Below, one piece after another: positions 1 to 9,710 of a stretch of DNA of 9,710 nucleotides. The notes under the pieces are model-generated. The model saw only the letters and a program-made list of their open reading frames with translations. It ran no database searches and was not told the DNA's origin. Made by a program: the position numbers and the translations under genes. This DNA is from a virus (lineage: Duplodnaviria > Heunggongvirae > Uroviricota > Caudoviricetes), in IMG/VR virus record IMGVR_UViG_2531839663_000002. One strand, given 5' to 3'. How positions within the stretch are numbered: the stretch's first letter is position 1; the number at the start of each line of letters is the position of its first letter.

Positions 1-156
1 TTGCATCAAGAACAGCAGTGTCAGCCCTAGGCTCTCGGACTTTGTACCGCTTATCTTGTCTTCAAAAATCAGCTCGCCTCCTGCACAGTTCAACGCATTA
101 CGTTGTAGATCGATTTTCTGGTCATTTGTTGATACGAAAACATAGCCAATAAGCAT
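1..156 (-). CDS. Serine DNA invertase (Pin/Gin/Hin family), 5' portion only; gene runs off the left window edge; carries the same Arg-to-Phe change as the right copy
   Basis: Minus strand of 1..156 is identical to 2203..2358, so it encodes MLIGYVFVSTNDQKIDLQRNALNCAGGELIFEDKISGTKSE...; start codon at 156..154 preceded by a GAGGGAG Shine-Dalgarno. Not in the ORF track because it is open at the edge. Confidence 0.7.
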   Translation of the reverse strand, partial: MLIGYVFVSTNDQKIDLQRNALNCAGGELIFEDKISGTKSESLGLTLLFLMQ

Positions 157-182
157 GGTAGCTCCCTCTGACAAAAGCAGGA

Positions 183-725
183 ATGATGCCATTTTCTCGT
201 TATTTCTGCATTTTCATAAACGTTGGTTTGGGAGAAGGCTCTGCATTACCGGTTGGGGTGCCTGTTCCGTGGCCTTCAGCCACTCCGCCAACAGGCTGGC
301 TGAAATGCAACGGTGCCGCTTTTTCTGCTGAAGAATACCCGGAACTGGCAAAGGCTTATCCGACAAATAAATTGCCTGATTTACGTGGTGAGTTTATTCG
401 TGGCTGGGATGACGGGCGTGGTATTGATGCTGTACGTGCCTTGCTAAGTCTTCAGAATGGAGGAGTGGAATCACACACCCACCAAGGGCAGCTCTTCAGA
501 GTTAGTGATTATCGTACAAAAGAAATACCAGCATCAGAAGTTATGGGAAGAGGATATATTGCAAGCCTGACGCCGGGTGCTGATAGCCCACTTGATTTTG
601 ATGATTATTCTGTATCTTCTAATCCAAATGGATATTTTGTCGGGAATCAGAGAACAACAGCATATGGGATAAATGAAACCCGTCCACGGAATATTGCATT
701 TAACTATATCGTGAGGGCTGCCTGA
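183..725 (+). CDS. Phage tail-fibre C-terminal (variable, receptor-binding) module; orphan segment with no constant N-terminal part upstream
   Basis: 180-aa ORF with tail-collar-like PVPWPSATPPTGWLKCNGAAFSAEEYPELAKAYP...DLRGEFIRGWDDGRG and terminal NIAFNYIVRAA typical of tail-fibre C-termini. First 18 codons lie in the repeat; in-frame stop at 159..161, so no upstream fusion is possible. Stop overlaps next start (TGATG at 723..727). Confidence 0.7.
   Translation: MMPFSRYFCIFINVGLGEGSALPVGVPVPWPSATPPTGWLKCNGAAFSAEEYPELAKAYPTNKLPDLRGEFIRGWDDGRGIDAVRALLSLQNGGVESHTHQGQLFRVSDYRTKEIPASEVMGRGYIASLTPGADSPLDFDDYSVSSNPNGYFVGNQRTTAYGINETRPRNIAFNYIVRAA
211..236. other. Putative invertase crossover site (hix/gix/pix-like), left copy
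   Basis: Reverse complement reads TTCTCCCAAACCAACGTTTATGAAAA, resembling remembered 26-bp sites hixL TTCTTGAAAACCAAGGTTTTTGATAA and gix TTCCTGTAAACCGAGGTTTTGGATAA (shared TTC..AAACC.A.GTTT..GA.AA). Sits at the inner end of the long repeat. Confidence 0.6.
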
Positions 726-1327
726 TGAATAAAGCCGTATTAAATAACGAACTCATTGCCATAAAAGCGGGAGACATTACCATTTATAATTATGATGGTG
801 AAACGCGGGAATATATTTCCACATCAACTGAATATCTTGCGGTTGGCGTCGGTATCCCGGCATGTTCTTGTTTAGATGCACCAGTTACACATAAAGCTGG
901 TTATGCAATCTGCCGTTCTGCAGATTTTAACTCATGGGAATATGTGCCAGACCATCGCGGTGAAATCATCTATAGCACCGAAACAGGAGAATCGAAAGAA
1001 ATCACAGCTCCGGGTGATTACCCTGAAAATACAACCACTATCGCCCCGTTAACGCCATATGATAAATGGGATGGTGAGAAATGGGTGACGGATACTGAGG
1101 CACAGCATAGTGCCGCAGTAGACGCGGCAGAAGCACAGCGCCAGTCACTGATTGATGCAGCAATGGCTTCCATTAGTCTGATTCAGCTGAAATTACAGGC
1201 CGGACGGAAGTTGACGCAGGCAGAAACAACCCGACTTAACGCCGTGCTGGATTACATTGACGCGGTGGCGGCAACAGATACCAGCACCGCGCCGGATGTC
1301 ATCTGGCCTGAACTGCCGGAGGCGTAG
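725..1327 (+). CDS. Tail fibre assembly protein (Tfa/U-like chaperone)
   Basis: 200-aa ORF translationally coupled to the upstream fibre module; C-terminal LDYIDAVAATDTSTAPDVIWPELP matches the conserved Tfa C-terminal motif and is shared with the convergent paralog. Confidence 0.8.
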   Translation: MNKAVLNNELIAIKAGDITIYNYDGETREYISTSTEYLAVGVGIPACSCLDAPVTHKAGYAICRSADFNSWEYVPDHRGEIIYSTETGESKEITAPGDYPENTTTIAPLTPYDKWDGEKWVTDTEAQHSAAVDAAEAQRQSLIDAAMASISLIQLKLQAGRKLTQAETTRLNAVLDYIDAVAATDTSTAPDVIWPELPEA

Positions 1328-1742
1328 GCCATTCAATATCTGGCGCACTGGAGGAATCAACCAGTTCCAGTGCGTCCAGATAATCCAGCCACAAATTATA
1401 TTGCGCCAGTTCATCATCTTTCAGACGACCAATAGCGGCTTTACCGGGCCATTGCTTACTGTTCATGTATTCGTTGGCCTGGTTAATTAGTAGCTGTCTT
1501 TCTGATTCAGTAATTTCAATAAGTTCTTCATGCGTGGGTGGAGGAATATCTGCCCACGCAGGCAGCCCATCATCTCCGGCAATACGGATTTTTCCTTGTG
1601 GCGGTTCAGCCATAAACTCACTGATAATATTTTGATTTACTTCCTTAGCGTCTGATAAATCCCATCCCTCTGATTTATATTTATCAATCATATCCACAGG
1701 GAAAAAAGCATTATGCCTTGCGCTATAAACATATTCGTTCAT
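1299..1742 (-). CDS. Tail fibre assembly protein (Tfa'/U'-like), second allele
   Basis: Minus-strand ORF; probable start is ATG at 1742..1740 (MNEYVYSARH...) with a GGGTGA Shine-Dalgarno about 7 nt upstream (the ORF track begins at an upstream GTG, 1751). C-terminus LWLDYLDALELVDSSSAPDIEWPTPP parallels the other Tfa. 3' ends overlap the + strand tfa by 29 nt. Confidence 0.8.
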   Translation of the reverse strand: MNEYVYSARHNAFFPVDMIDKYKSEGWDLSDAKEVNQNIISEFMAEPPQGKIRIAGDDGLPAWADIPPPTHEELIEITESERQLLINQANEYMNSKQWPGKAAIGRLKDDELAQYNLWLDYLDALELVDSSSAPDIEWPTPPAVQAR

Positions 1743-1762
1743 ATAAATCACCCTGAATAAAA

Positions 1763-2176
1763 TTACTCACCAACAGCCCACCAACTGTAATTCATCGATA
1801 CCGTGTCGCTGGTTGATGACGTCCTGTAAGCAGAATTAAAGCCGGTTAACGTTGGGCCTTCTGCAGTCATCACGAACCCTCGCCCAGCGCCTAAAGGCGC
1901 ACCGCCATCACCAGAATGAGTAAGCATGGCGCAGTCCGCTTTTTTGGGGAAAGGGATGCTGAATGTAATTCTCATTGTTTGCGTCGATAATGTCGGCGTA
2001 ACCGCACCACTACCATATTGCAGGATTTTCCCGTTGGGTAATTTCATCCATCCATCACCACTGGCAAAAGAGGCCATGTCCGGTATCTGATTTTCCCCTG
2101 TCCCTACATCCCGTTTTGCCGCTTCTCCCAAACCAACGTTTATGAAAATGCAGAAATAACGAGAAAATGGCATCAT
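1763..2176 (-). CDS. Phage tail-fibre C-terminal (variable) module, alternative allele
   Basis: 137-aa ORF starting with the same 18 residues (MMPFSRYFCIFINVGLGE) as 183..725 because both begin in the repeat, then diverging; followed 20 nt downstream by its own tfa gene. Confidence 0.7.
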   Translation of the reverse strand: MMPFSRYFCIFINVGLGEAAKRDVGTGENQIPDMASFASGDGWMKLPNGKILQYGSGAVTPTLSTQTMRITFSIPFPKKADCAMLTHSGDGGAPLGAGRGFVMTAEGPTLTGFNSAYRTSSTSDTVSMNYSWWAVGE

Positions 2177-2358
2177 TCCTGCTTTTGTCAGAGGGAGCTA
2201 CCATGCTTATTGGCTATGTTTTCGTATCAACAAATGACCAGAAAATCGATCTACAACGTAATGCGTTGAACTGTGCAGGAGGCGAGCTGATTTTTGAAGA
2301 CAAGATAAGCGGTACAAAGTCCGAGAGCCTAGGGCTGACACTGCTGTTCTTGATGCAA
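2122..2358. repeat. Right copy of the inverted repeat (IR-R)
   Basis: Exact reverse complement of 1..237. Confidence 0.9.
2123..2148. other. Putative invertase crossover site (hix/gix/pix-like), right copy
   Basis: TTCTCCCAAACCAACGTTTATGAAAA on the + strand; exact inverted partner of 211..236. Confidence 0.6.
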
Positions 2359-2394
2359 ATTAAAGGATTTAATAGTGAGTTGTGGCCTTACTAA
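2203..2394 (+). pseudogene. Serine DNA invertase (Pin/Gin/Hin family) remnant: N-terminal ~40 codons recognisable, then divergent and terminated
   Basis: MLIGYVFVSTNDQKIDLQRNALNCAGGELIFEDKISGTKSE closely matches remembered Gin/Pin N-termini (MLIGYVRVSTNDQ..DLQRNAL..IFEDK.SG). The conserved Arg before the catalytic Ser is Phe (TTC). Frame stops at 2392..2394 after about 64 codons, against roughly 190 aa for an intact invertase. GAGGGAG Shine-Dalgarno precedes ATG 2203. Confidence 0.8.
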
Positions 2395-2403
2395 TGTAAG
2401 GCC
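2384..2403. terminator. Hairpin between the convergent invertase remnant and the GmrSD-like gene; possible terminator
   Basis: 8-bp stem GGCCTTAC / GTAAGGCC with 4-nt loop TAAT, then a moderately T-rich stretch on the + strand (gctataatcattttatt). Lies between the stop at 2392..2394 and the minus-strand stop at 2428..2430. Confidence 0.35.
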
Positions 2404-2427
2404 GCTATAATCATTTTATTAATTGCA

Positions 2428-4317
2428 TTAATCGTGTTTTGGCCATACTTTCAATGCAATTTCCCCCAACTTTTTACCCCGCTCCAGGATTTCACCCTCA
2501 TCCCATTTATCCTTAAGTATAAGTGGTATGTTCAGTCGTAGATTGGTGTGGACGATGAGAGCATCACGTTTTTTCAGAAATACAGCATTCTGAACAGAAC
2601 GGTTTACGCTAAGGTTAAGCAAAGTTAGATTTCCCAACGTAGCTATCGCTTGTTGCCGTTTCCTTACCAGTAGCTGCTCAGGGGTAAGATCTGTTCCAGA
2701 CAGAACAATTTGGTTCAATACCGTTGCATCTGAATTTGTCACCATATGACCATTTTCGAGAGGCCAACAGGAATACCAACTTTGAGGCATAAGATGATCG
2801 ATATCGAGATTGGAAAGATTTGGAACATCAGGCTTCTCTGTCTTCACTTGGCGACAAAGTTCTCTTTCAAGTTCCGTTAACATTGAGCGCATTTTCGGTG
2901 CGTCGAGCCTGCCAGGATAAAGTGGAGCATTGATGCAAGCATTGAGAAATTCTGAGTCACCAGGCCAACGTGAGGCTTCGCCATTTAAGCTATTGAGGAT
3001 ATTACGTAACTCAACACTGGAAATTTCCGTTTTAGACAAGTGCCGCAATACATTCATAAATACATTGTTGTAATTCTTTGGCGTCAGGCCACATACGGCT
3101 CTTCGTACTACGTAGGAGACAAGATCATTATACATGGCTGCTTTCTCATCATCGGCGATATTAGCTATCGAAATGAACAAAGCAAGCGGATAAAGTGTCG
3201 TCACATCATAGGCTGCGATGCGATGTCCAAAGTGTGAGATGGGGGTTGTGCCAAAACCACCAACTAATTCTTTATATTGTGATGCATATTGTTTGAGGCG
3301 CTTTACTTGCAGATCAGCTCGTTGTGAAGGCAAGTCCTTACTTACATAATCACGATACTCATTGTAAAGACGAGACAGATCAATTTCACGTTGCCTTTCT
3401 GATTGCAATGTCGCATGCACTAGCCACTCCATGCGTGGTTTATTAATACGTCCACGGCGTTGCCTTTCCGACCAGTATGTATCTTCAAAGCTCTTCCACT
3501 CATTTTCATATAATTCAATAGCATTAATATTTTCATGCTCAGCGCACATAAAGATGTAGTTGCGAATAAGATCCGTGGCATGAAGTTCCGCCCCTCGGCC
3601 ATTTAATGTTTCAAAAATTATTTGGGCATCATCTTCAGCTTCGAGAAATATGCTTACCAGTTTCAGATCCGTCAAGACAGCCTCAATTAGTGCTACAGCA
3701 TTTTCATGTGGTGAGTACTGTTCTATTTTAATCCATTTTATAAAGGCTTCAGTAAAAAACCATAATGCCTCTAGTGACGGCGGGTGGTTGAAATGTTTAC
3801 GTAACGTACCATGTTGCGTGAAGCTATCAGAAAATACATCACGGAGATCGTCAATGTTTTCAACATTAAAACTTTGAATAAAATGAGTTTGGTCTCGAAA
3901 AGTTGGCCACAGTTTGAAGCATTCTACCTTTTTATTTCGCATAGTTGCTTCGTTTGTATTTTTCAAGCAAGTCAATACTAACCCTTCCAAATCAGAAAGG
4001 CCTGTAGCACGCAATGATAATCGAATGGATGCCAGAATATATTGAAGAGTGGTTAAACGTTGCTGGCCGTCAATAATATGTATGGTATCTACACCTAACA
4101 AGCTGTTTTTGAGTTGAGGTTCCAGCACCACCGCGCCAAGGAAATGGGGAGTTGGTTTTGTTCCCAAAAGTCGGCTATGTGCTTTTTCGAAGATATCCTC
4201 CAGCAAAGCTGACCATTGGTTTTGTTGCGTCCATACGTAGGCACGTTGATAGAATGGAACACGATATTGTCGTTGATTTTGGAAAAGTTGCTGGATGGTT
4301 AGCGTTTCGGATTTCAT
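2428..4317 (-). CDS. GmrSD-family type IV (modification-dependent) restriction endonuclease, DUF262 + DUF1524 architecture
   Basis: 629-aa ORF. N-terminal region has the DUF262 hallmark DGQQR (aa 83-87, ...IHIIDGQQRLTTL) with upstream YRVPFYQRAYVW; C-terminal region has an HNH/His-Me-like DIDHLMPQSW ... NLTLLNLSVNRSVQN pattern typical of DUF1524. Confidence 0.8.
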   Translation of the reverse strand: MKSETLTIQQLFQNQRQYRVPFYQRAYVWTQQNQWSALLEDIFEKAHSRLLGTKPTPHFLGAVVLEPQLKNSLLGVDTIHIIDGQQRLTTLQYILASIRLSLRATGLSDLEGLVLTCLKNTNEATMRNKKVECFKLWPTFRDQTHFIQSFNVENIDDLRDVFSDSFTQHGTLRKHFNHPPSLEALWFFTEAFIKWIKIEQYSPHENAVALIEAVLTDLKLVSIFLEAEDDAQIIFETLNGRGAELHATDLIRNYIFMCAEHENINAIELYENEWKSFEDTYWSERQRRGRINKPRMEWLVHATLQSERQREIDLSRLYNEYRDYVSKDLPSQRADLQVKRLKQYASQYKELVGGFGTTPISHFGHRIAAYDVTTLYPLALFISIANIADDEKAAMYNDLVSYVVRRAVCGLTPKNYNNVFMNVLRHLSKTEISSVELRNILNSLNGEASRWPGDSEFLNACINAPLYPGRLDAPKMRSMLTELERELCRQVKTEKPDVPNLSNLDIDHLMPQSWYSCWPLENGHMVTNSDATVLNQIVLSGTDLTPEQLLVRKRQQAIATLGNLTLLNLSVNRSVQNAVFLKKRDALIVHTNLRLNIPLILKDKWDEGEILERGKKLGEIALKVWPKHD

Positions 4318-4874
4318 TGTTTACCTATAAGTGACATTCCACAAGAGTAAGAAATTCATCTGAGTCAGAATAATCATTTTTATGTAGTCATGATACAGTG
4401 TATTTGTTGCTGGTGAAGTAAAAACGAGAAATCCCGCTTTTGAATGCTGACGTGCTACGGTTTCATTGGATATTCTCTTTTGTCTGTTCTCCATTGCGTC
4501 GGTGTTTTTTCGAGATTGTTAGCACATTGTTGCTGCTGTTTTTTTATCCAAGCGCTGCTAAATCATTGTAGATGGCACTATCGGGTATTGAAGCTGCAGA
4601 CATGTCGTATACAATAGTCAGCTGCGACTGGCTGGTGAACTTCCGATAGTGCGAGTATTGAATGATTTCCAACTGTTATCGATTTTGCGTATTTTTTGCA
4701 TGAGAGGATTTTTACCTCCTCCCACCGATCCTCCATGGCTTTACGCCAGTGTCTCTGGTCTGCTATGTACCAGAAGCGGAAGTTGTGTCTGTTAGTATGA
4801 TATTATAATTACACTCGCTTATAATAAGCCCACAATACAGATATAAAAATATCTCAACGCTTGGGAGTTAACAA

Positions 4875-5336
4875 ATGATTAACTTTACTGAAATTGATAG
4901 TGACGGTGAAGCCTGGGAGTCATTTGCCCGTGATTTTCTTGAAGAACTTGGCTTTTATATTGAATCCGCGCCAGATAGAGGTGCAGATGGAGGTAAAGAT
5001 CTTTTAATCACAGAGCAATTGCAAGGTCAGTTAAATAAATATAAATTTCGTTGGCTTGTTAGCTGTAAACATTATGCAACAAGTAAAAAATCAGTTTCAG
5101 AAAAGGATGAGATTAATATACAAGAACGTATTGATGGATTCAATGCCGACGGATTTATTGGATTTTACTCAACACTGCCAAGTAGTGGTTTAAATTCAAG
5201 AATGACGCAATTAAAAGAGAATGGAAAAATAAAGGACTTTCGATTCTTTGATGGTAAATTAATTGAAAATCACTTAGTCAGAATTGGTTACTCAAAACTA
5301 CTCCTTAGATACTTTCCTGAGAGCTATAAAAAATAA
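4875..5336 (+). CDS. Small stand-alone Mrr-cat-like (PD-(D/E)xK fold) restriction-endonuclease domain protein
   Basis: 153-aa ORF with GGGAG Shine-Dalgarno about 8 nt before the ATG. Motifs GADGGKDLL (4980..5006) and FRWLVSCKHY resemble the Mrr catalytic core (GDGGIDL ... QCKRY). No N-terminal DNA-binding domain. Confidence 0.65.
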   Translation: MINFTEIDSDGEAWESFARDFLEELGFYIESAPDRGADGGKDLLITEQLQGQLNKYKFRWLVSCKHYATSKKSVSEKDEINIQERIDGFNADGFIGFYSTLPSSGLNSRMTQLKENGKIKDFRFFDGKLIENHLVRIGYSKLLLRYFPESYKK

Positions 5337-5347
5337 AACCCAAGCAT

Positions 5348-5785
5348 TTGATTTTTGATAAGTACTTACCTATAAAATGTGATCGTTGTGGAAAGGACTT
5401 AATAGAAAACCATCATGAAGAAAATTATGATGGCATTGTGTGCAATGCAGAGATCATACACGATGACAAACCAAATGAGGTGATAGCGGTTTATTATGCG
5501 TGTAAAGGTGATTGTGATAAGCATTTTGAGGATTATTTTTGGAATGAATATAAAGCGATTACGAGATGGCAGGATATAAGTGATCTAGCCATCCCATTAT
5601 TCTATCTCAAATGGATTATGGGGACATTTAATGAACTTGAGTATGGAAGGAAAACATATACCAAAGAAGCCTTCAATAAAACAAAGGAGATAACATTAGC
5701 GCTATCTCAAATTGTTATGAGAGAAATGACAGAAAAAGAAAGAGAAAGAGTGATGGCTTTGAATTCACTACCTGATTACATATAA
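5348..5785 (+). CDS. Cys-rich hypothetical protein (possible C4 zinc ribbon), likely co-transcribed with the upstream Mrr-cat gene
   Basis: 145-aa ORF starting 12 nt after the upstream stop, same strand. Only a TTG start is in frame and no clear Shine-Dalgarno is seen. CxxC (CDRC) plus CxxxC (CKGDC) could form a zinc ribbon; no recognisable family. Confidence 0.5.
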   Translation: MIFDKYLPIKCDRCGKDLIENHHEENYDGIVCNAEIIHDDKPNEVIAVYYACKGDCDKHFEDYFWNEYKAITRWQDISDLAIPLFYLKWIMGTFNELEYGRKTYTKEAFNKTKEITLALSQIVMREMTEKERERVMALNSLPDYI

Positions 5786-5958
5786 ATTATATTTACTAAC
5801 ATTTGAACTAGCGCATCTTTGGTGCAGAGACACCACCATCTTGGGGACACTGTGAGGCCACTGGCTTCCCAACTTATCGTTATACAGGATAATAAGGTGC
5901 TCCAGGGTAGCTATGAACTTGATGTTACGTCTGCGATTTGCTCATAAGGGACAACCAT

Positions 5959-5991
5959 ACTCAAATCTCCCACATTGCAGGAGATTTGAGT
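5959..5991 (+). promoter_or_regulatory. Hairpin sequestering the Shine-Dalgarno of the tyrosine recombinase gene
   Basis: Perfect 12-bp inverted repeat ACTCAAATCTCC (5959..5970) / GGAGATTTGAGT (5980..5991) with 9-nt loop; the right arm contains GGAG and ends one base before ATG 5992. Confidence 0.5.
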
Positions 5992-6594
5992 ATGAACACG
6001 TCACCGTGGAACAAAGACCGTATCATCGGCCAAAAAAGACCACTTCAGATATCTCATATCTGGGGGATCCGAATCCGGCTTGAACTGGAAGGTAAAACGC
6101 GCGATTTAGCTCAGTTCGATATGGCCCTGGACAGTAAGCTACGAGGCTGTGATCTGGTCAAACTCAAAGTATCTGATGTTGCATATGGTAGCTCTGCTTC
6201 AAGCAGAGCTACGGTGCTGCAACAGAAAACCGGTAGCCCTGTGCAGTTTGAGATAACCAAAGGGACAAGAGAAGCTGTTGCTGCATTGATAATGCTTGGC
6301 AATTTGCATAGTAAAGACTTCTTGTTTCGGTTTCTGGTCGGAACTAATTAGCTCATATCTACCCGGCAATACAACCGAATTTTTCATGGGTGGGTAGAAA
6401 AGCTTGGTCTCGAAGATTCGCTTTACAGCACTCATTCCATGAGAAGAACAAAACCTTACCTGATCTACAAGAAAACCAAGAATCTTCGGGTGATCCAACT
6501 TCTGTTGGGCCATAAGAAACTGGAAAGCACAGTCCGTTATCTGGGTATTGAAGTAGATGATGTGTTAGAGATCTCTGAATCGATTGAAGTCTAA
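5992..6594 (+). pseudogene. Compact (~200 aa) tyrosine recombinase/integrase (catalytic domain only) interrupted by an in-frame TAG at 6349..6351
   Basis: One frame runs 5992..6594 with a single TAG at 6349..6351. Before it: LRGCDLVKLKVSDV...QQKTGSPVQFEITKGTREAV (box I Arg). After it: HSMRRTKPYLIYKKTKNLRVIQLLLGHKKLESTVRYLGIEVDD (H-x-x-R, His, RY Tyr). The downstream part is missing from the ORF track only for lack of a start codon. Confidence 0.8.
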
Positions 6595-6600
6595 GGTTGT

Positions 6601-6622
6601 CAGGGCTGCAACAACAGCCCTG
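6601..6622 (+). other. GC-rich stem-loop just after the recombinase stop codon
   Basis: CAGGGCTG (6601..6608), loop CAACAA, CAGCCCTG (6615..6622); no following T-tract, so not a canonical intrinsic terminator. A TTGACA hexamer follows at 6633..6638. Confidence 0.35.
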
Positions 6623-6717
6623 TGCCAGGAGTTGACACTGTTAGCATCGCGCTATGTTAATTTATGTTGAGCAGTTAAAAATGATAATGTAGTTTATATG
6701 GATAATCAGTTTATAGA

Positions 6718-7599
6718 GTGGGTGAGATGGAACTAGATGAAACACTTGAAGTTATCAAAAATAATTTTAGTAATAATCAGAAGAAACTATTTAAAAGGAT
6801 TGAGCCAGCCACTAACCGTCAAGTAGCTATCGGTCTTATTAGTTTACAAGGAGTGGAAAAAACATCTCAGGCTGAGATAGAGGTAATTGCCGGCCTCATA
6901 TCTCAGTTTAGTCCATTGGAAATCGATAGTTTTCAAAATTCACCACGACGAATAACTCTGAAAGGTCAATTCCCAAACGGACATATTGTTTATATCGAGC
7001 CTCAGTATAAGGTTGGCAATATAAACCCAAAAGCCCAGCCTTGGGCAATAGACCTTGTCCTTAGACTAAATAGATGGATTGGTCAAGATTTGGTTGAGAT
7101 TGCTGCTATTGGCATCGAGTATGATGGCCACATAGCTCATTATGTGGAAAGTAAAATTAAGTCTACTTACAAGCGTGATGCAGTAATAACTAGTAACGAA
7201 GGATTTCAATCGATTAGGATCTCACCAGAACAATGGAAATCGTCTAAAGAGGATCTTAAGAAGGCAATTAAAAAGTATTTTGAACATCACATAAAAAAAA
7301 TTGAAAAAGTTCAACTAAGCACAATAAACGCCCAAAATTTCAACAATTTTATTTATGAAAATGAAAATGAAGTGATATCCACTGTAACTTGCCCTTTATG
7401 TAATGGAAAAGGCAGTTTAGCGGGAGAAGATTGTCCGATCTGTAATGGAATGGGATCCGTAAAAAGATATATTGCTGCAAAGGTGAATCTTTCTAATTAT
7501 GAAAAATTCACTTGTCCTGACTGCAGGAATATAAAATTAGATTGCAGAACCTGCAATGGTGAAGGATCAATTAGCAGAGAAAAAGCATTAGAAATGTAA
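6718..7599 (+). CDS. Fusion protein: DUF559/Vsr-like PD-(D/E)xK nuclease domain plus C-terminal DnaJ-type CxxCxGxG zinc finger
   Basis: 293-aa ORF (GTG 6718 or ATG 6727 start, ambiguous). Central AIDLVL...AIGIEYDGHIAHY...KRDAVITSNEGFQSIRIS matches the DUF559 pattern (IExDGxxH ... RDxx ... GxxxxR). C-terminus has CPLCNGKG, CPICNGMG, CPDCRN, CRTCNGEG (about 7390..7566), as in the DnaJ cysteine-rich domain. Confidence 0.7.
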   Translation: MGEMELDETLEVIKNNFSNNQKKLFKRIEPATNRQVAIGLISLQGVEKTSQAEIEVIAGLISQFSPLEIDSFQNSPRRITLKGQFPNGHIVYIEPQYKVGNINPKAQPWAIDLVLRLNRWIGQDLVEIAAIGIEYDGHIAHYVESKIKSTYKRDAVITSNEGFQSIRISPEQWKSSKEDLKKAIKKYFEHHIKKIEKVQLSTINAQNFNNFIYENENEVISTVTCPLCNGKGSLAGEDCPICNGMGSVKRYIAAKVNLSNYEKFTCPDCRNIKLDCRTCNGEGSISREKALEM

Positions 7600-7904
7600 T
7601 GATAAAAGTAAACCTAAATAATTTAGTGTAATGTCTGCTTTTCGCTCATAACAGACATAAACTTCAGTTATGGCATAAAGGTATGCATGCTGGGTGGGGA
7701 AAGTATGAAGGAAAAGAAGACTGCTGCGCCGTTTGTCGTCACGTTTATCTTCATTGGCTATGTAAGTCGTAATACAAGGTGGGACAAAACTGAGACACAT
7801 AAGGCCTCGCAATGGCTTGCAAGGCTTTACATGTTTTGATGTGGTGGGACGTGTGAGCGCAGTGTTGATGGGGTAATGCTTTGAATTAGAAGCGGATTCT
7901 TATA

Positions 7905-7950
7905 ATTCGTAATGCGAAGGTCGTAGGTTCGACTCCTATTATCGGCACCA
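7905..7950 (+). other. 3' fragment (~46 nt) of tRNA-Thr(CGU), thrW-like; attachment-site remnant marking the end of an integrated element
   Basis: ATTCGTAATGCGAAGGTCGTAGGTTCGACTCCTATTATCGGCACCA matches the 3' part of E. coli thrW as remembered (anticodon-loop CGT, T-arm GGTTCGACTCC, acceptor end with CCA). Sequence upstream of 7905 does not match the tRNA 5' half, so this is not an intact gene. Confidence 0.75.
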
Positions 7951-8403
7951 TCTTTTATAATAAAATCATCAAGTTATTATTGCATTGTTTTGCTTTGTTC
8001 AACACTAATGTGCAATTCTGCGCGTTGTAGATGTGGCAAAATTGTGGCAAGTACAGTGAGATTGTTTGTGGCTCAATGCAAGGGTATGCTAACGGCACGT
8101 GTTACCTTGTAGCTCCCGTCGATCTTGTCTTTTGAGCAATATTACTACTTTGATGGTTTCTGGTTACGGATGTTGTCAGTCCAGTTCGCAGCCAGCACGG
8201 TTTGACCTAAAGGATGTTATTACAATAACCTACGCAGGCATTCAAACACGTTTAGTCTGCCATTTAGGTTATTGCATTCACTTGACGACCCATTTGCATT
8301 TCACTTAGTCATATCTAACAAAAAAATGCATCCGATACCCTACTATTGACAGGCAGCTTTGAGCGATCTGCTGACATTACCAGCATAGTGGCGTATTAAT
8401 CAT

Positions 8404-8637
8404 CTAGGAGCAGGTCACAATCTCAGCCATCAAGCTCTGGACTAACCCAACTGCGAAACGCTGCAGACTAACAAGACCATCTTCGTCGTCCTCGCCGTAG
8501 AAACGTGTGAAGGCAACCGATCGCACCTTCTCATAGTCTTCACCATGTTCATCGCCTCCAAAACGCTTGGCGAGCGCCGCCAGCACGTACTTCAAAGACT
8601 CTTGGTCCTCCTCTGAACGAATAGAGCTATGACTTCG
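8404..8637 (-). pseudogene. Orphan 3' gene fragment of unknown function
   Basis: Minus-strand frame open from a stop at 8638..8640 to the stop at 8404, with no ATG or Shine-Dalgarno at its 5' end (the ORF track starts at a TTG). Acidic sequence ...GGDEHGEDYEKVRSVAFTRFYGEDDEDG...; no family recognised. Could be spurious. Confidence 0.25.
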
Positions 8638-8804
8638 CTAGAGACAAAGTCGCTTACTTAGCTTCCCTGTTTCGATGTTGCAACTCACATATTTTTAACT
8701 TTCAGAATGTGTTACCCAATAGTTCGTGCTAATGCTACTATTTGTATTCAATCGGATTAATGATGTTGTTACGCGAGTCCATTGAACTAAACATAAGGGA
8801 GTAT

Positions 8805-9330
8805 ATGGGGTTAGCTGAAACATTAGTTAGTATTCCGCAGTCTGAAAGAGGCGGTGAGATTGCTCAACGTGGGTTTGACTATCAAACTTGCTGGGCTTTA
8901 TCTCAAATGCTGGAATATGAACTAGATGAAAAGAACTATGTGTTTATCTTCGAATATCATGATGATGTTCTTATTCTTGATGACGAAGTTTCTCCAACAC
9001 AACTCACATTTGCTCAAGTAAAAACAAGAGAGAAACACTGGACTGCATCCACTCTTAGTAATAGCACCAAGAAGAACCCAATATCTATCATCGGTAAGTT
9101 ATTTATTCATCAAAAGAATTTCGCCGAATATTCACCCAAGCTCCTTTTTGTTACTAATGCTTCTTTCAATCTATGTGAGGAAAACGGTGGTAAGTCTTGT
9201 TTTGGTGCAAATGAAGTCAAAGTGGAGTATCAGACGAGCTTTAAGAAAGCAATCAAAGATCAAGTAAAGCTTGATGACTCCAGTATCGATCTTTCTGTTA
9301 TGCGTTTCGTTCAATCCTCATTAAGCCTAG
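8805..9330 (+). pseudogene. PD-(D/E)xK-like nuclease-domain gene (resembles DUF4297-type domains of defence proteins), 3'-truncated by IS5
   Basis: ATG at 8805 with AAGGGA Shine-Dalgarno at 8795..8800. Motifs GFDYQTCWAL, EYHDDVLILDD and FAQVKT fit a D...(E/Q)xK core. The frame continues into the IS5 terminus from 9331; the last residues GKVRTSP are IS-encoded, so the native C-terminus is missing. Confidence 0.6.

Positions 9331-9710
<380 letters not shown>

What the first reader, a model, noticed from the sequence alone, without database searches (positions are those of the whole stretch)
7905..7950. Orphan 3' fragment of tRNA-Thr(CGU) marks an integrative-element boundary
A direct-repeat copy of a tRNA 3' end is the classic footprint of a tRNA-targeting integrase. 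The fragment is in + orientation, so the intact tRNA and the integrase end should lie to the left, beyond this window. Everything from the tail-fibre cassette to the DUF559 fusion would then be cargo at the distal end of a thrW-integrated island; thrW is a known phage integration target.
Basis: partly seen in the sequence, partly recalled or inferred. Interest (0 to 1): 0.5.

Follow-up and report, generated by a model that had tools for sequence, protein, structure and literature searches.

The report
Prophage right end (attR) at thrW

Summary
Window 7905..7950 is identical (46/46) to positions 31-76 of E. coli thrW, tRNA-Thr(CGU). No complete tRNA is present. The same 46 bases are the published attP/attL/attR core of Shigella phage SfI. 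They are also carried unchanged by 108 phage records, including P22, SfII, SfX, ES18 and HK542.

The junction is a textbook attR:
- The 125 bases to the left are 96-98% identical to the attP left arm of SfI, SfII, SfIV and SfV.
- The 1,521 bases to the right are 100% identical to what directly follows an intact thrW in an empty-site strain (proB, proA, thrW, then this flank).

Four comparator genomes have the reciprocal attL 12-47 kb to the left, on the same strand. It consists of proA, intact thrW, an integrase gene and an xis-like gene (integrase 99% identical to SfI Int where compared).

The window is an entire 9,710-bp draft contig, so this genome's own attL cannot be seen.

Between the tail-fibre genes and attR lies a cargo slot that holds gtrABC in SfI and P22. 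Here it holds a GmrSD type IV restriction enzyme and several decayed genes.

Verdict: observation confirmed, interpretation supported, already known, low interest.

The parts
7905..7951 (+). att core (O): the last 46 nt of thrW plus one shared base. This is the stretch common to attP and attB, within which strand exchange took place.
   Evidence: 46/46 identical to thrW positions 31-76. Identical to the annotated 46-bp attP core of SfI, to the published SfI core, and to 108 phage records including P22. Identity with both attP and attB extends to 7951.
7780..7904 (+). Phage-derived left arm of attR (by analogy to lambda, the P arm).
   Evidence: 96.5-98.2% identical to the sequence immediately left of the core in SfIV, SfII, SfI and SfV, annotated attP in the SfII and SfI records. 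No similarity to the 5' half of thrW or to the proA-thrW spacer.
7631..7839 (-). Conserved block that lies downstream of int in the circular phage form. It contains a strong hairpin at 7795..7834 and may be a terminator or sib-like element.
   Evidence: 87% identical to DNA about 460 bp downstream of int in phage 21 and to lambda-like phages. Terminator-like sites on the - strand. Hairpin energy -21.5 kcal/mol, z = -5.2. The function is inferred, not tested.
7952..9710 (+). Chromosomal right flank (B'): a small ORF, a Lamassu LmuA N-terminal fragment (8805..9353) and the start of IS5.
   Evidence: 7951..9471 is 100% identical, ungapped, to the DNA directly after intact thrW in strain 2017.06.04CC. 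9251..9710 is 99.8% identical to the same locus with one indel. LmuA model positions 1-175 of 361, E = 4e-104. IS5 DUF772 domain at 9479..9710.
1..2394 (.). Prophage tail-fibre region: invertible segment with alternative tail-fibre C-termini, tail-fibre assembly genes, and a truncated Pin-type invertase.
   Evidence: Pfam Collar, Caudo_TAP (twice), Gp53-like_C, and only the N-terminal part of Resolvase. 89-94% identical to tail-fibre and invertase regions of P2-like phages. In L016-L018, Mu-type baseplate genes lie directly upstream. 1..237 is an exact inverted copy of 2122..2358.
2428..4317 (-). Cargo: GmrSD-family type IV (modification-dependent) restriction enzyme, 629 aa, intact.
   Evidence: Pfam GmrSD_N and GmrSD_C. 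PADLOC mREase_IV full length, 1481 bits.
4875..5785 (+). Cargo: Mrr-like restriction endonuclease, frameshifted into 153-aa and 145-aa ORFs.
   Evidence: Pfam Mrr_cat. 1-bp deletion near 5327 relative to L009, where the gene encodes 303 aa. The same allele is found in 20 contigs.
5992..6594 (+). Cargo: remnant of a tyrosine recombinase (catalytic domain only), further disrupted in this window.
   Evidence: The 200-aa homologue in L016 hits Phage_integrase and XerC/XerA catalytic regions below cutoff. The window differs at 6349 (T for C), where the ORF ends.
6718..7599 (+). Cargo: 290/293-aa protein of unknown function, the last gene before attR.
   Evidence: Only sub-threshold hits: DnaJ-type zinc finger, MTES_1575 REase-like, and the C-terminal part of PADLOC candidate PDC-M01B at 6e-15. 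It travels with the attR arm in many genomes.

Best explanation
The fragment is the core of attR, the right-hand junction of a temperate phage of the SfV/SfI type (HK97-type head, Mu-type contractile tail, P22-type integrase) that integrated into the chromosomal thrW gene next to proA.

How it works:
- The phage attP carries a 46-bp copy of the 3' part of thrW.
- A lambda-family tyrosine integrase recombines attP with thrW inside this shared stretch.
- At the left end (attL), the host's 5' 30 nt are joined to the phage's 46 nt, so thrW stays intact, followed at once by int and xis.
- At the right end (attR), the host's original 46 nt are left behind the phage's left arm as an orphan 3' fragment, followed by the old thrW downstream flank.

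Shown here: sequence identity of all three parts of the junction, and the reciprocal attL in comparator genomes.

Inferred: that this genome's own attL, int and xis lie on another contig; that the prophage is or is not still excisable; and where exactly in the 46 bp the strands were exchanged.
For: - Core: 46/46 identical to thrW positions 31-76. Identical to the SfI attP core feature, to the core printed in PMC3636060, and to 108 phage records including the P22 'attP core' and HK542 'similar to thrW tRNA gene and ptwF'. PMC3851460 reports the 46-bp site at both ends of the SfIV prophage.
- Four-way alignment: window = SfI left arm + core + empty-site right flank. APEC 102026 attL = thrW 5' part + core + SfI right arm + int.
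- Empty site: proB, proA, thrW, then window 7951..9471 at 100%. The listed complete genomes H4-H13, H15 match only from 7905 onward, with an intact tRNA-Thr annotated.
- Comparators with thrW and an integrase gene on the left: APEC 102026, 34.1 kb, integrase 99% identical to SfI Int. L009, 12.2 kb, 99.98% identical to window 1539..7951. LR-17-1, 46.6 kb, same right flank as the window, integrase protein accession the same as in APEC 102026. TUM17668, 16.0 kb, same integrase accession.
- SfI Int is 90% identical to P22 Int.
- Phage genes inside the boundary.
Against: - The window is a whole draft contig, so attL, int and xis of this genome were not seen.
- Several genes near attR are decayed: truncated pin, frameshifted REase, recombinase remnant. 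Close relatives carry heavily deleted versions (L009, TUM17668). The element here may therefore be a defective remnant rather than a live prophage.
- A 46-47 bp repeat could in principle be mis-joined by a short-read assembler. Against that, the same junction exists in the complete genome of LR-17-1.
Confidence: 0.93

Rival explanations
1. The junction is a relic. The prophage has been largely deleted, or has lost int/attL, so the 46-nt copy is a fossil boundary that can no longer take part in excision.
For: Decay next to attR: pin truncated to 63-75 aa, REase frameshift, recombinase nonsense change. Near-identical relatives are deletion derivatives of 12-16 kb (L009, TUM17668). In XJ34 the same attR-proximal module sits behind an unrelated arsenic-resistance island.
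Against: This is a sub-case of the main explanation, not a different origin. Contigs with the same alleles (L017, L018) carry a full Mu-type baseplate and tail-fibre set upstream. Even the deletion derivatives retain thrW and an integrase gene.
Confidence: 0.3
2. The fragment separates two tandem elements. The DNA to its right would be a second, older thrW-integrated island rather than chromosomal flank.
For: Tandem arrays at thrW exist. An integrase gene or integrase fragment follows the orphan copy in APEC 102026 (vat island), TUM17668 and L017. The right flank here carries a truncated Lamassu LmuA gene and IS5, typical of island debris.
Against: No integrase lies to the right within the window. 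The identical flank follows intact thrW directly in the listed complete genomes. No further thrW fragment occurs within 20 kb downstream in LR-17-1, or within 6.6 kb in 2017.06.04CC.
Confidence: 0.05
3. It is an assembly chimera. A short-read assembler joined the left half of a free attP to the right half of an unoccupied attB across the 47-bp repeat.
For: The window is a short draft contig ending in repeats on both sides. Its left end carries an odd 237-bp inverted duplication, which shows that repeat-driven path choices occurred.
Against: The same P-arm/core/B' junction occurs in the complete genome LR-17-1, covering window 7627..8600 at 98.7%. The P-arm/core junction is found in many complete genomes.
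Confidence: 0.02
4. It is a decayed duplicate tRNA gene (a pseudogene made by duplication and 5' deletion), unrelated to site-specific recombination.
For: No cloverleaf is present and the 5' half is missing.
Against: The break point coincides to the base with the attP core of characterised phages. The left flank is phage attP arm and the right flank is the native thrW flank. The 46 nt show no decay at all.
Confidence: 0.005

Closest known systems
attR of Shigella flexneri serotype-converting phages SfI, SfII, SfIV and SfV (integration into thrW next to proA)
   Same: Identical 46-bp core. The 125-bp left arm is 96.5-98.2% identical. Gene order is the same: tail-fibre genes, cargo slot, attP, int, xis. 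The comparator integrase is 99% identical to SfI Int.
   Different: The cargo slot holds a GmrSD type IV restriction enzyme, a frameshifted Mrr-like REase, a recombinase remnant and a 290-aa protein, instead of gtrA-gtrB-gtr(type). The host is E. coli, with a different right flank (LmuA fragment and IS5, rather than yaiC as named in PMC3636060).
Salmonella phage P22 attP/attR at thrW
   Same: Identical 46-bp stretch. The 23-bp core marked in the P22 record corresponds to window 7912..7934. int and xis lie immediately right of the core, and gtr cargo lies to the left. P22 Int is 90% identical to SfI Int. The phage rebuilds an intact thrW at one prophage end (bioRxiv 10.1101/2020.10.05.325894).
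   Different: P22 is a short-tailed phage with a tailspike. P22 was not among the listed arm matches, and its left arm was not aligned to the window.
ptwF, the orphan thrW copy at the end of cryptic prophage CP4-6 in E. coli K-12
   Same: The same 46 nt (49 nt identical to thrW) occur as a second copy at 297209..297254 in MG1655, just past the annotated end of CP4-6. Phage records name ptwF as the equivalent of this core.
   Different: The flanks are unrelated to the window. In K-12 the adjacent integrase (intF) lies to the left of the orphan copy, and the element is a 34-kb cryptic mosaic.
Lambda attR (P-O-B') paradigm
   Same: Works the same way: a hybrid site made of a phage arm, a common core and a bacterial flank. 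It is the excision substrate together with attL, Int, Xis and host factors (established knowledge, not tested here).
   Different: The lambda core is 15 bp and does not lie in a tRNA gene. Here the common stretch is 46-47 bp because the phage must restore the tRNA 3' part.

Membership tests
attR junction of a P22/SfV-type thrW-integrating prophage | Core identical to the 3' part of thrW and to the phage attP core | tested here: met
   46/46 to thrW. Identical to the SfI attP core feature, to the published core, and to P22 and 107 other phage records.
attR junction of a P22/SfV-type thrW-integrating prophage | Sequence on one side of the core is the phage attP arm | tested here: met
   7780..7904 is 96.5-98.2% identical to the attP left arm of SfI, SfII, SfIV and SfV.
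attR junction of a P22/SfV-type thrW-integrating prophage | Sequence on the other side is the chromosomal flank found next to intact thrW in unoccupied genomes | tested here: met
   7951..9471 is 100% identical to the DNA after thrW in 2017.06.04CC, where proB-proA-thrW is directly upstream. The listed genomes H4-H13, H15 show the same pattern.
attR junction of a P22/SfV-type thrW-integrating prophage | Reciprocal attL (intact thrW followed by int and xis) at the other end, in the same orientation, in the same genome | not testable with these tools
   The window is the entire contig AFAD02000006.1, and other contigs of that assembly could not be fetched. The feature is met in four comparators: APEC 102026, L009, LR-17-1 and TUM17668.
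attR junction of a P22/SfV-type thrW-integrating prophage | Phage genes lie inside the boundary | tested here: met
   Tail-fibre, tail-fibre assembly and invertase genes at 1..2394. Mu-type baseplate genes lie upstream in contigs with the same alleles.
attR junction of a P22/SfV-type thrW-integrating prophage | Int/Xis-dependent excision regenerates attP and attB | not testable with these tools
   Needs PCR on induced cultures. Shown experimentally for SfI in PMC3636060, not for this strain.
Functional tRNA gene or complete tRNA pseudogene | Cloverleaf with acceptor, D, anticodon and T arms | tested here: not met
   ARAGORN finds 0 genes. No Rfam tRNA match at E<=1. The 5' 30 nt are absent at up to 3 mismatches.
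P4-type genomic-island boundary at a tRNA gene | P4-family integrase transcribed away from the intact tRNA at the proximal end | tested here: not met
   In the comparators sharing this attR, the integrase next to thrW is of the SfI/P22 type (99% to SfI Int) and is transcribed towards the tRNA. A differently arranged integrase, in + orientation, is seen only in the unrelated arsenic island of XJ34.

The most novel reading that the evidence does not exclude
The attR-proximal block (about 4620..7904: Mrr-like REase, recombinase remnant, 290-aa zinc-finger/REase-like protein, plus the attP arm) may be a semi-autonomous defence cassette. It would persist and be exchanged between unrelated thrW-integrated elements by recombination through the shared att arm and core. 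The 290-aa protein would then be an undescribed anti-phage gene. The block is seen behind an SfV-like prophage, behind an arsenic-resistance island and in deletion derivatives. Part of it also occurs in a P2-like phage (H34).
Probability: 0.1. Interest if true: 0.35.

Novelty: already known. Interest (0 to 1): 0.08.

Why it matters
It matters little as a discovery. The 46-bp thrW-derived att core of P22 and the Shigella Sf phages has been described and tested experimentally, and orphan copies are very common in E. coli (7,550 chromosomal copies of the 46-mer in 5,017 complete genomes).

Its practical value is for annotation:
- It fixes the right boundary of a prophage at window 7950/7951.
- It identifies the integrase type to look for on the other contig.
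- It marks 2400..7600 as the phage's variable cargo slot, which here carries restriction-type defence genes instead of O-antigen modification genes.

Tried and rejected
- Rfam at E<=1 gave one hit, archaeal snoRNA sR41 at 3082..3156, inside the GmrSD gene. It scores 26 bits against a gathering score of 54 and is rejected as chance.
- I looked for ptwF in the K-12 RefSeq feature table. It is not listed there, but the second 46-mer copy is present at 297209..297254, and phage records name ptwF.
- I tried to reach this genome's own left end. The look-up of encoding contigs showed that the window is a complete 9.7-kb contig. Other contigs of GCA_000194555.2 cannot be fetched, and no complete E. 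coli genome covers 80% or more of the window.
- My first guess for the strand-exchange position was the 7-nt anticodon loop, because identity starts at tRNA position 31. The P22 record and the phage L paper instead mark a 23-bp site equal to window 7912..7934. I could not resolve this and leave the exact position open.
- The 'DUF559 fusion' label for ORF 6718..7599 is not supported: only sub-threshold MTES_1575 and DnaJ zinc-finger hits.
- One paper query failed on a term that was too short and was rerun.

Full report
**Observation**

Window 7905..7950 reads ATTCGTAATGCGAAGGTCGTAGGTTCGACTCCTATTATCGGCACCA. It is identical, 46 of 46, to positions 31-76 of the 76-nt tRNA-Thr annotated downstream of proA in E. 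coli 2017.06.04CC. That is thrW with anticodon CGT. The first mismatch is at 7904.

The 46-mer occurs once in the window even with three mismatches allowed, and none of 200 shuffles produced a match. The 5' 30 nt of thrW are absent. ARAGORN finds no tRNA in the window, and Rfam at E<=1 reports no tRNA match.

**What the junction is made of**

A search of 5,426 complete E. coli genomes with window 7400..8600 split the matches into two classes.
- Many genomes match only 7905..8600, at up to 100%, and annotate an intact tRNA-Thr there.
- Others match only 7400..7951.

In strain 2017.06.04CC the order is gpt, frsA, crl, phoE, proB, proA, thrW, followed at once by DNA identical to window 7951..9471. 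That is 1,521 bases, ungapped, with no mismatch. This is the unoccupied site.

On the other side, window 7780..7950 is 96.5-98.2% identical to Shigella phages SfIV, SfII, SfI and SfV. The SfII and SfI records annotate this stretch as attP. In the SfI record a 46-bp 'attP core' feature aligns base for base with 7905..7950. In that record int and xis lie immediately to the right, and a tail-fibre gene plus gtrI-gtrB-gtrA lie to the left.

A four-way alignment shows the classical pattern.
- The window equals the SfI left arm, plus the core, plus the empty-site right flank.
- The junction next to thrW in APEC 102026 equals the thrW 5' part, plus the core, plus the SfI right arm and int.
- Identity shared by attP and attB runs to 7951, which makes 47 bp.

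**Literature**

PMC3636060 prints exactly these 46 bases as the attP core of SfI. It states that they are identical to the attL/attR core and that the 261-bp attP region is split between the two prophage ends in lysogens. It also says the core is shared with SfII, SfV, SfX and P22. PMC3851460 reports the same 46-bp site at both ends of the SfIV prophage and integration into thrW. The phage L genome paper notes that the P22-type attP sits in a 'false tRNA gene' that rebuilds an intact thrW at one prophage end. The 46-mer is present at 100% in 108 phage records, including P22, ES18, SfX, HK542, HK446 and mEp213. The last three are annotated as similar to thrW and ptwF.

**Where the other end is**

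The window is identical to contig AFAD02000006.1 (9,710 bp) of draft assembly GCA_000194555.2. This genome's own left end is therefore out of reach. Four comparators that share this attR were examined.

| Comparator | Left end | Distance from thrW to orphan copy | Notes |
|---|---|---|---|
| APEC 102026 | proA, intact thrW, integrase 15 bp downstream on the opposite strand, xis-like gene | 34.1 kb | HK97-type head and Mu-type tail genes. Same tail-fibre-to-attR region as the window (97.5% over the aligned parts). Integrase 99% identical to SfI Int. |
| L009 | full 76-nt thrW next to an integrase gene and proA | 12.2 kb | 99.98% identical to window 1539..7951. Encodes the identical GmrSD protein. 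|
| LR-17-1 | thrW plus an integrase with the same protein accession as in APEC 102026 | 46.6 kb | The only complete genome that also shares the window's right flank. Lambda-like prophage. |
| TUM17668 | thrW plus the same integrase accession | 16.0 kb | Deleted prophage with GmrSD and a retron Ec67 in the cargo slot. |

SfI Int and P22 Int are 90% identical.

**Mechanism**

This rests on established knowledge of lambda-family integrases and on the SfI and P22 work cited above. Int recombines attP with thrW within the shared stretch. attL keeps a complete thrW because the phage supplies the 3' 46 nt. attR retains the host's original 46 nt behind the phage left arm.

The exact exchange point inside the 46 bp was not determined here. 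The P22 record marks a 23-bp site that corresponds to window 7912..7934.

**State of the element**

The DNA inside the boundary is phage DNA. It carries a tail-fibre C-terminal domain gene, two tail-fibre assembly genes, an alternative fibre tip, and the N-terminal stub of a Pin-type invertase. Contigs with the same alleles have Mu-type baseplate genes directly upstream.

Between the invertase stub and attR lies a variable cargo slot with these contents:
- An intact GmrSD type IV restriction enzyme (Pfam GmrSD_N and GmrSD_C; PADLOC mREase_IV, 1481 bits).
- A Mrr-like restriction endonuclease, broken by a 1-bp deletion near 5327.
- A tyrosine-recombinase catalytic-domain remnant with a further nonsense change.
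- A 290/293-aa protein with only sub-threshold domain hits.

Relatives hold other genes in the same slot: gtrABC in SfI and P22, retron Ec67 in TUM17668, and pinE plus a GIY-YIG gene in APEC 102026. The decay near attR and the existence of deletion derivatives leave open whether this copy is still an active prophage.

**How common it is**

The 46-mer has 7,550 chromosomal places in 5,017 complete E. coli genomes, with a median of 1 and a maximum of 4 per genome. That leaves roughly 2,500 copies beyond one per genome. K-12 MG1655 has its second copy at 297209..297254, just past the annotated end of CP4-6.

**Rivals**

- A fossil boundary of a deleted prophage is a sub-case of the main explanation and remains possible.
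- A boundary between two tandem elements is unlikely. No integrase follows the core, and the same flank follows intact thrW directly in other genomes.
- An assembly chimera is unlikely because the junction exists in a complete genome.
- A decayed tRNA duplicate is excluded by the base-exact coincidence with the phage att core.

**Verdict**

Two refinements apply: the element is an SfV/SfI-type prophage, and only about 2400..7600 is cargo. The feature is already known and its interest is low.

Noticed in passing
window 1-237 and 2122-2358: The contig's first 237 bases are an exact inverted copy of 2122..2358, which holds the truncated pin gene and a crossover repeat of about 20 bp (218..237 and 2122..2141). 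Either both orientations of the invertible tail-fibre segment were present in the sequenced culture, despite the truncated invertase, or the assembler took an ambiguous path.
   Followed up: partly
window 2167-2394 and 2428-4317: The Pin-type invertase is cut down to 63-75 aa. An intact 629-aa GmrSD type IV restriction gene replaces the 3' part of pin and the GIY-YIG gene seen in relatives L003 and L016.
   Followed up: partly
window 4875-5785: The Mrr-like restriction endonuclease is split by a 1-bp deletion near 5327; the intact gene encodes 303 aa in L009. The same allele occurs in 20 contigs, so it is a real allele and not a sequencing error. About 91% identical DNA occurs in the P2-like phage record P2-EC67.
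   Followed up: partly
window 6718-7599: This 290/293-aa protein is always found next to the attR arm. It has only sub-threshold hits: a DnaJ-type CXXCXGXG zinc finger, MTES_1575 REase-like, and the C-terminal part of PADLOC candidate PDC-M01B at 6e-15. Its function is unknown, and the 'DUF559 fusion' label is not confirmed.
   Followed up: partly
window 7631-7839 (hairpin 7795-7834, - strand): This block is 87% identical to DNA about 460 bp downstream of int in phage 21 and to lambda-like phages. It contains a hairpin with a 17-bp stem (-21.5 kcal/mol, z = -5.2). It may be a terminator or a sib-like element that integration separates from int.
   Followed up: partly
window 8805-9353 and 9479-9710: The right flank carries the N-terminal half of a Lamassu LmuA gene (model positions 1-175 of 361, E = 4e-104), cut off by IS5. 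The native thrW flank is itself debris of an older defence locus.
   Followed up: partly
L017 13031-14251; L003 20506-21041; L025 1-898: In several genomes the orphan copy is followed by another integrase gene or integrase fragment, for example the vat island in APEC 102026. This shows tandem accumulation of elements at thrW.
   Followed up: partly
L006 3710-3773 (K-12 MG1655 297209-297272): K-12's orphan thrW copy is followed by 18 nt resembling the SfI right arm: TTAAAATCAAAGAGTTAC against TTAAAATCAATAAGTTAC. This hints at a lost SfV/P22-type prophage to its right.
   Followed up: no
window 3082-3156 (- strand): Sub-threshold Rfam match to archaeal C/D-box snoRNA sR41 (26 bits against a gathering score of 54), inside the GmrSD coding sequence. 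Judged to be chance.
   Followed up: no
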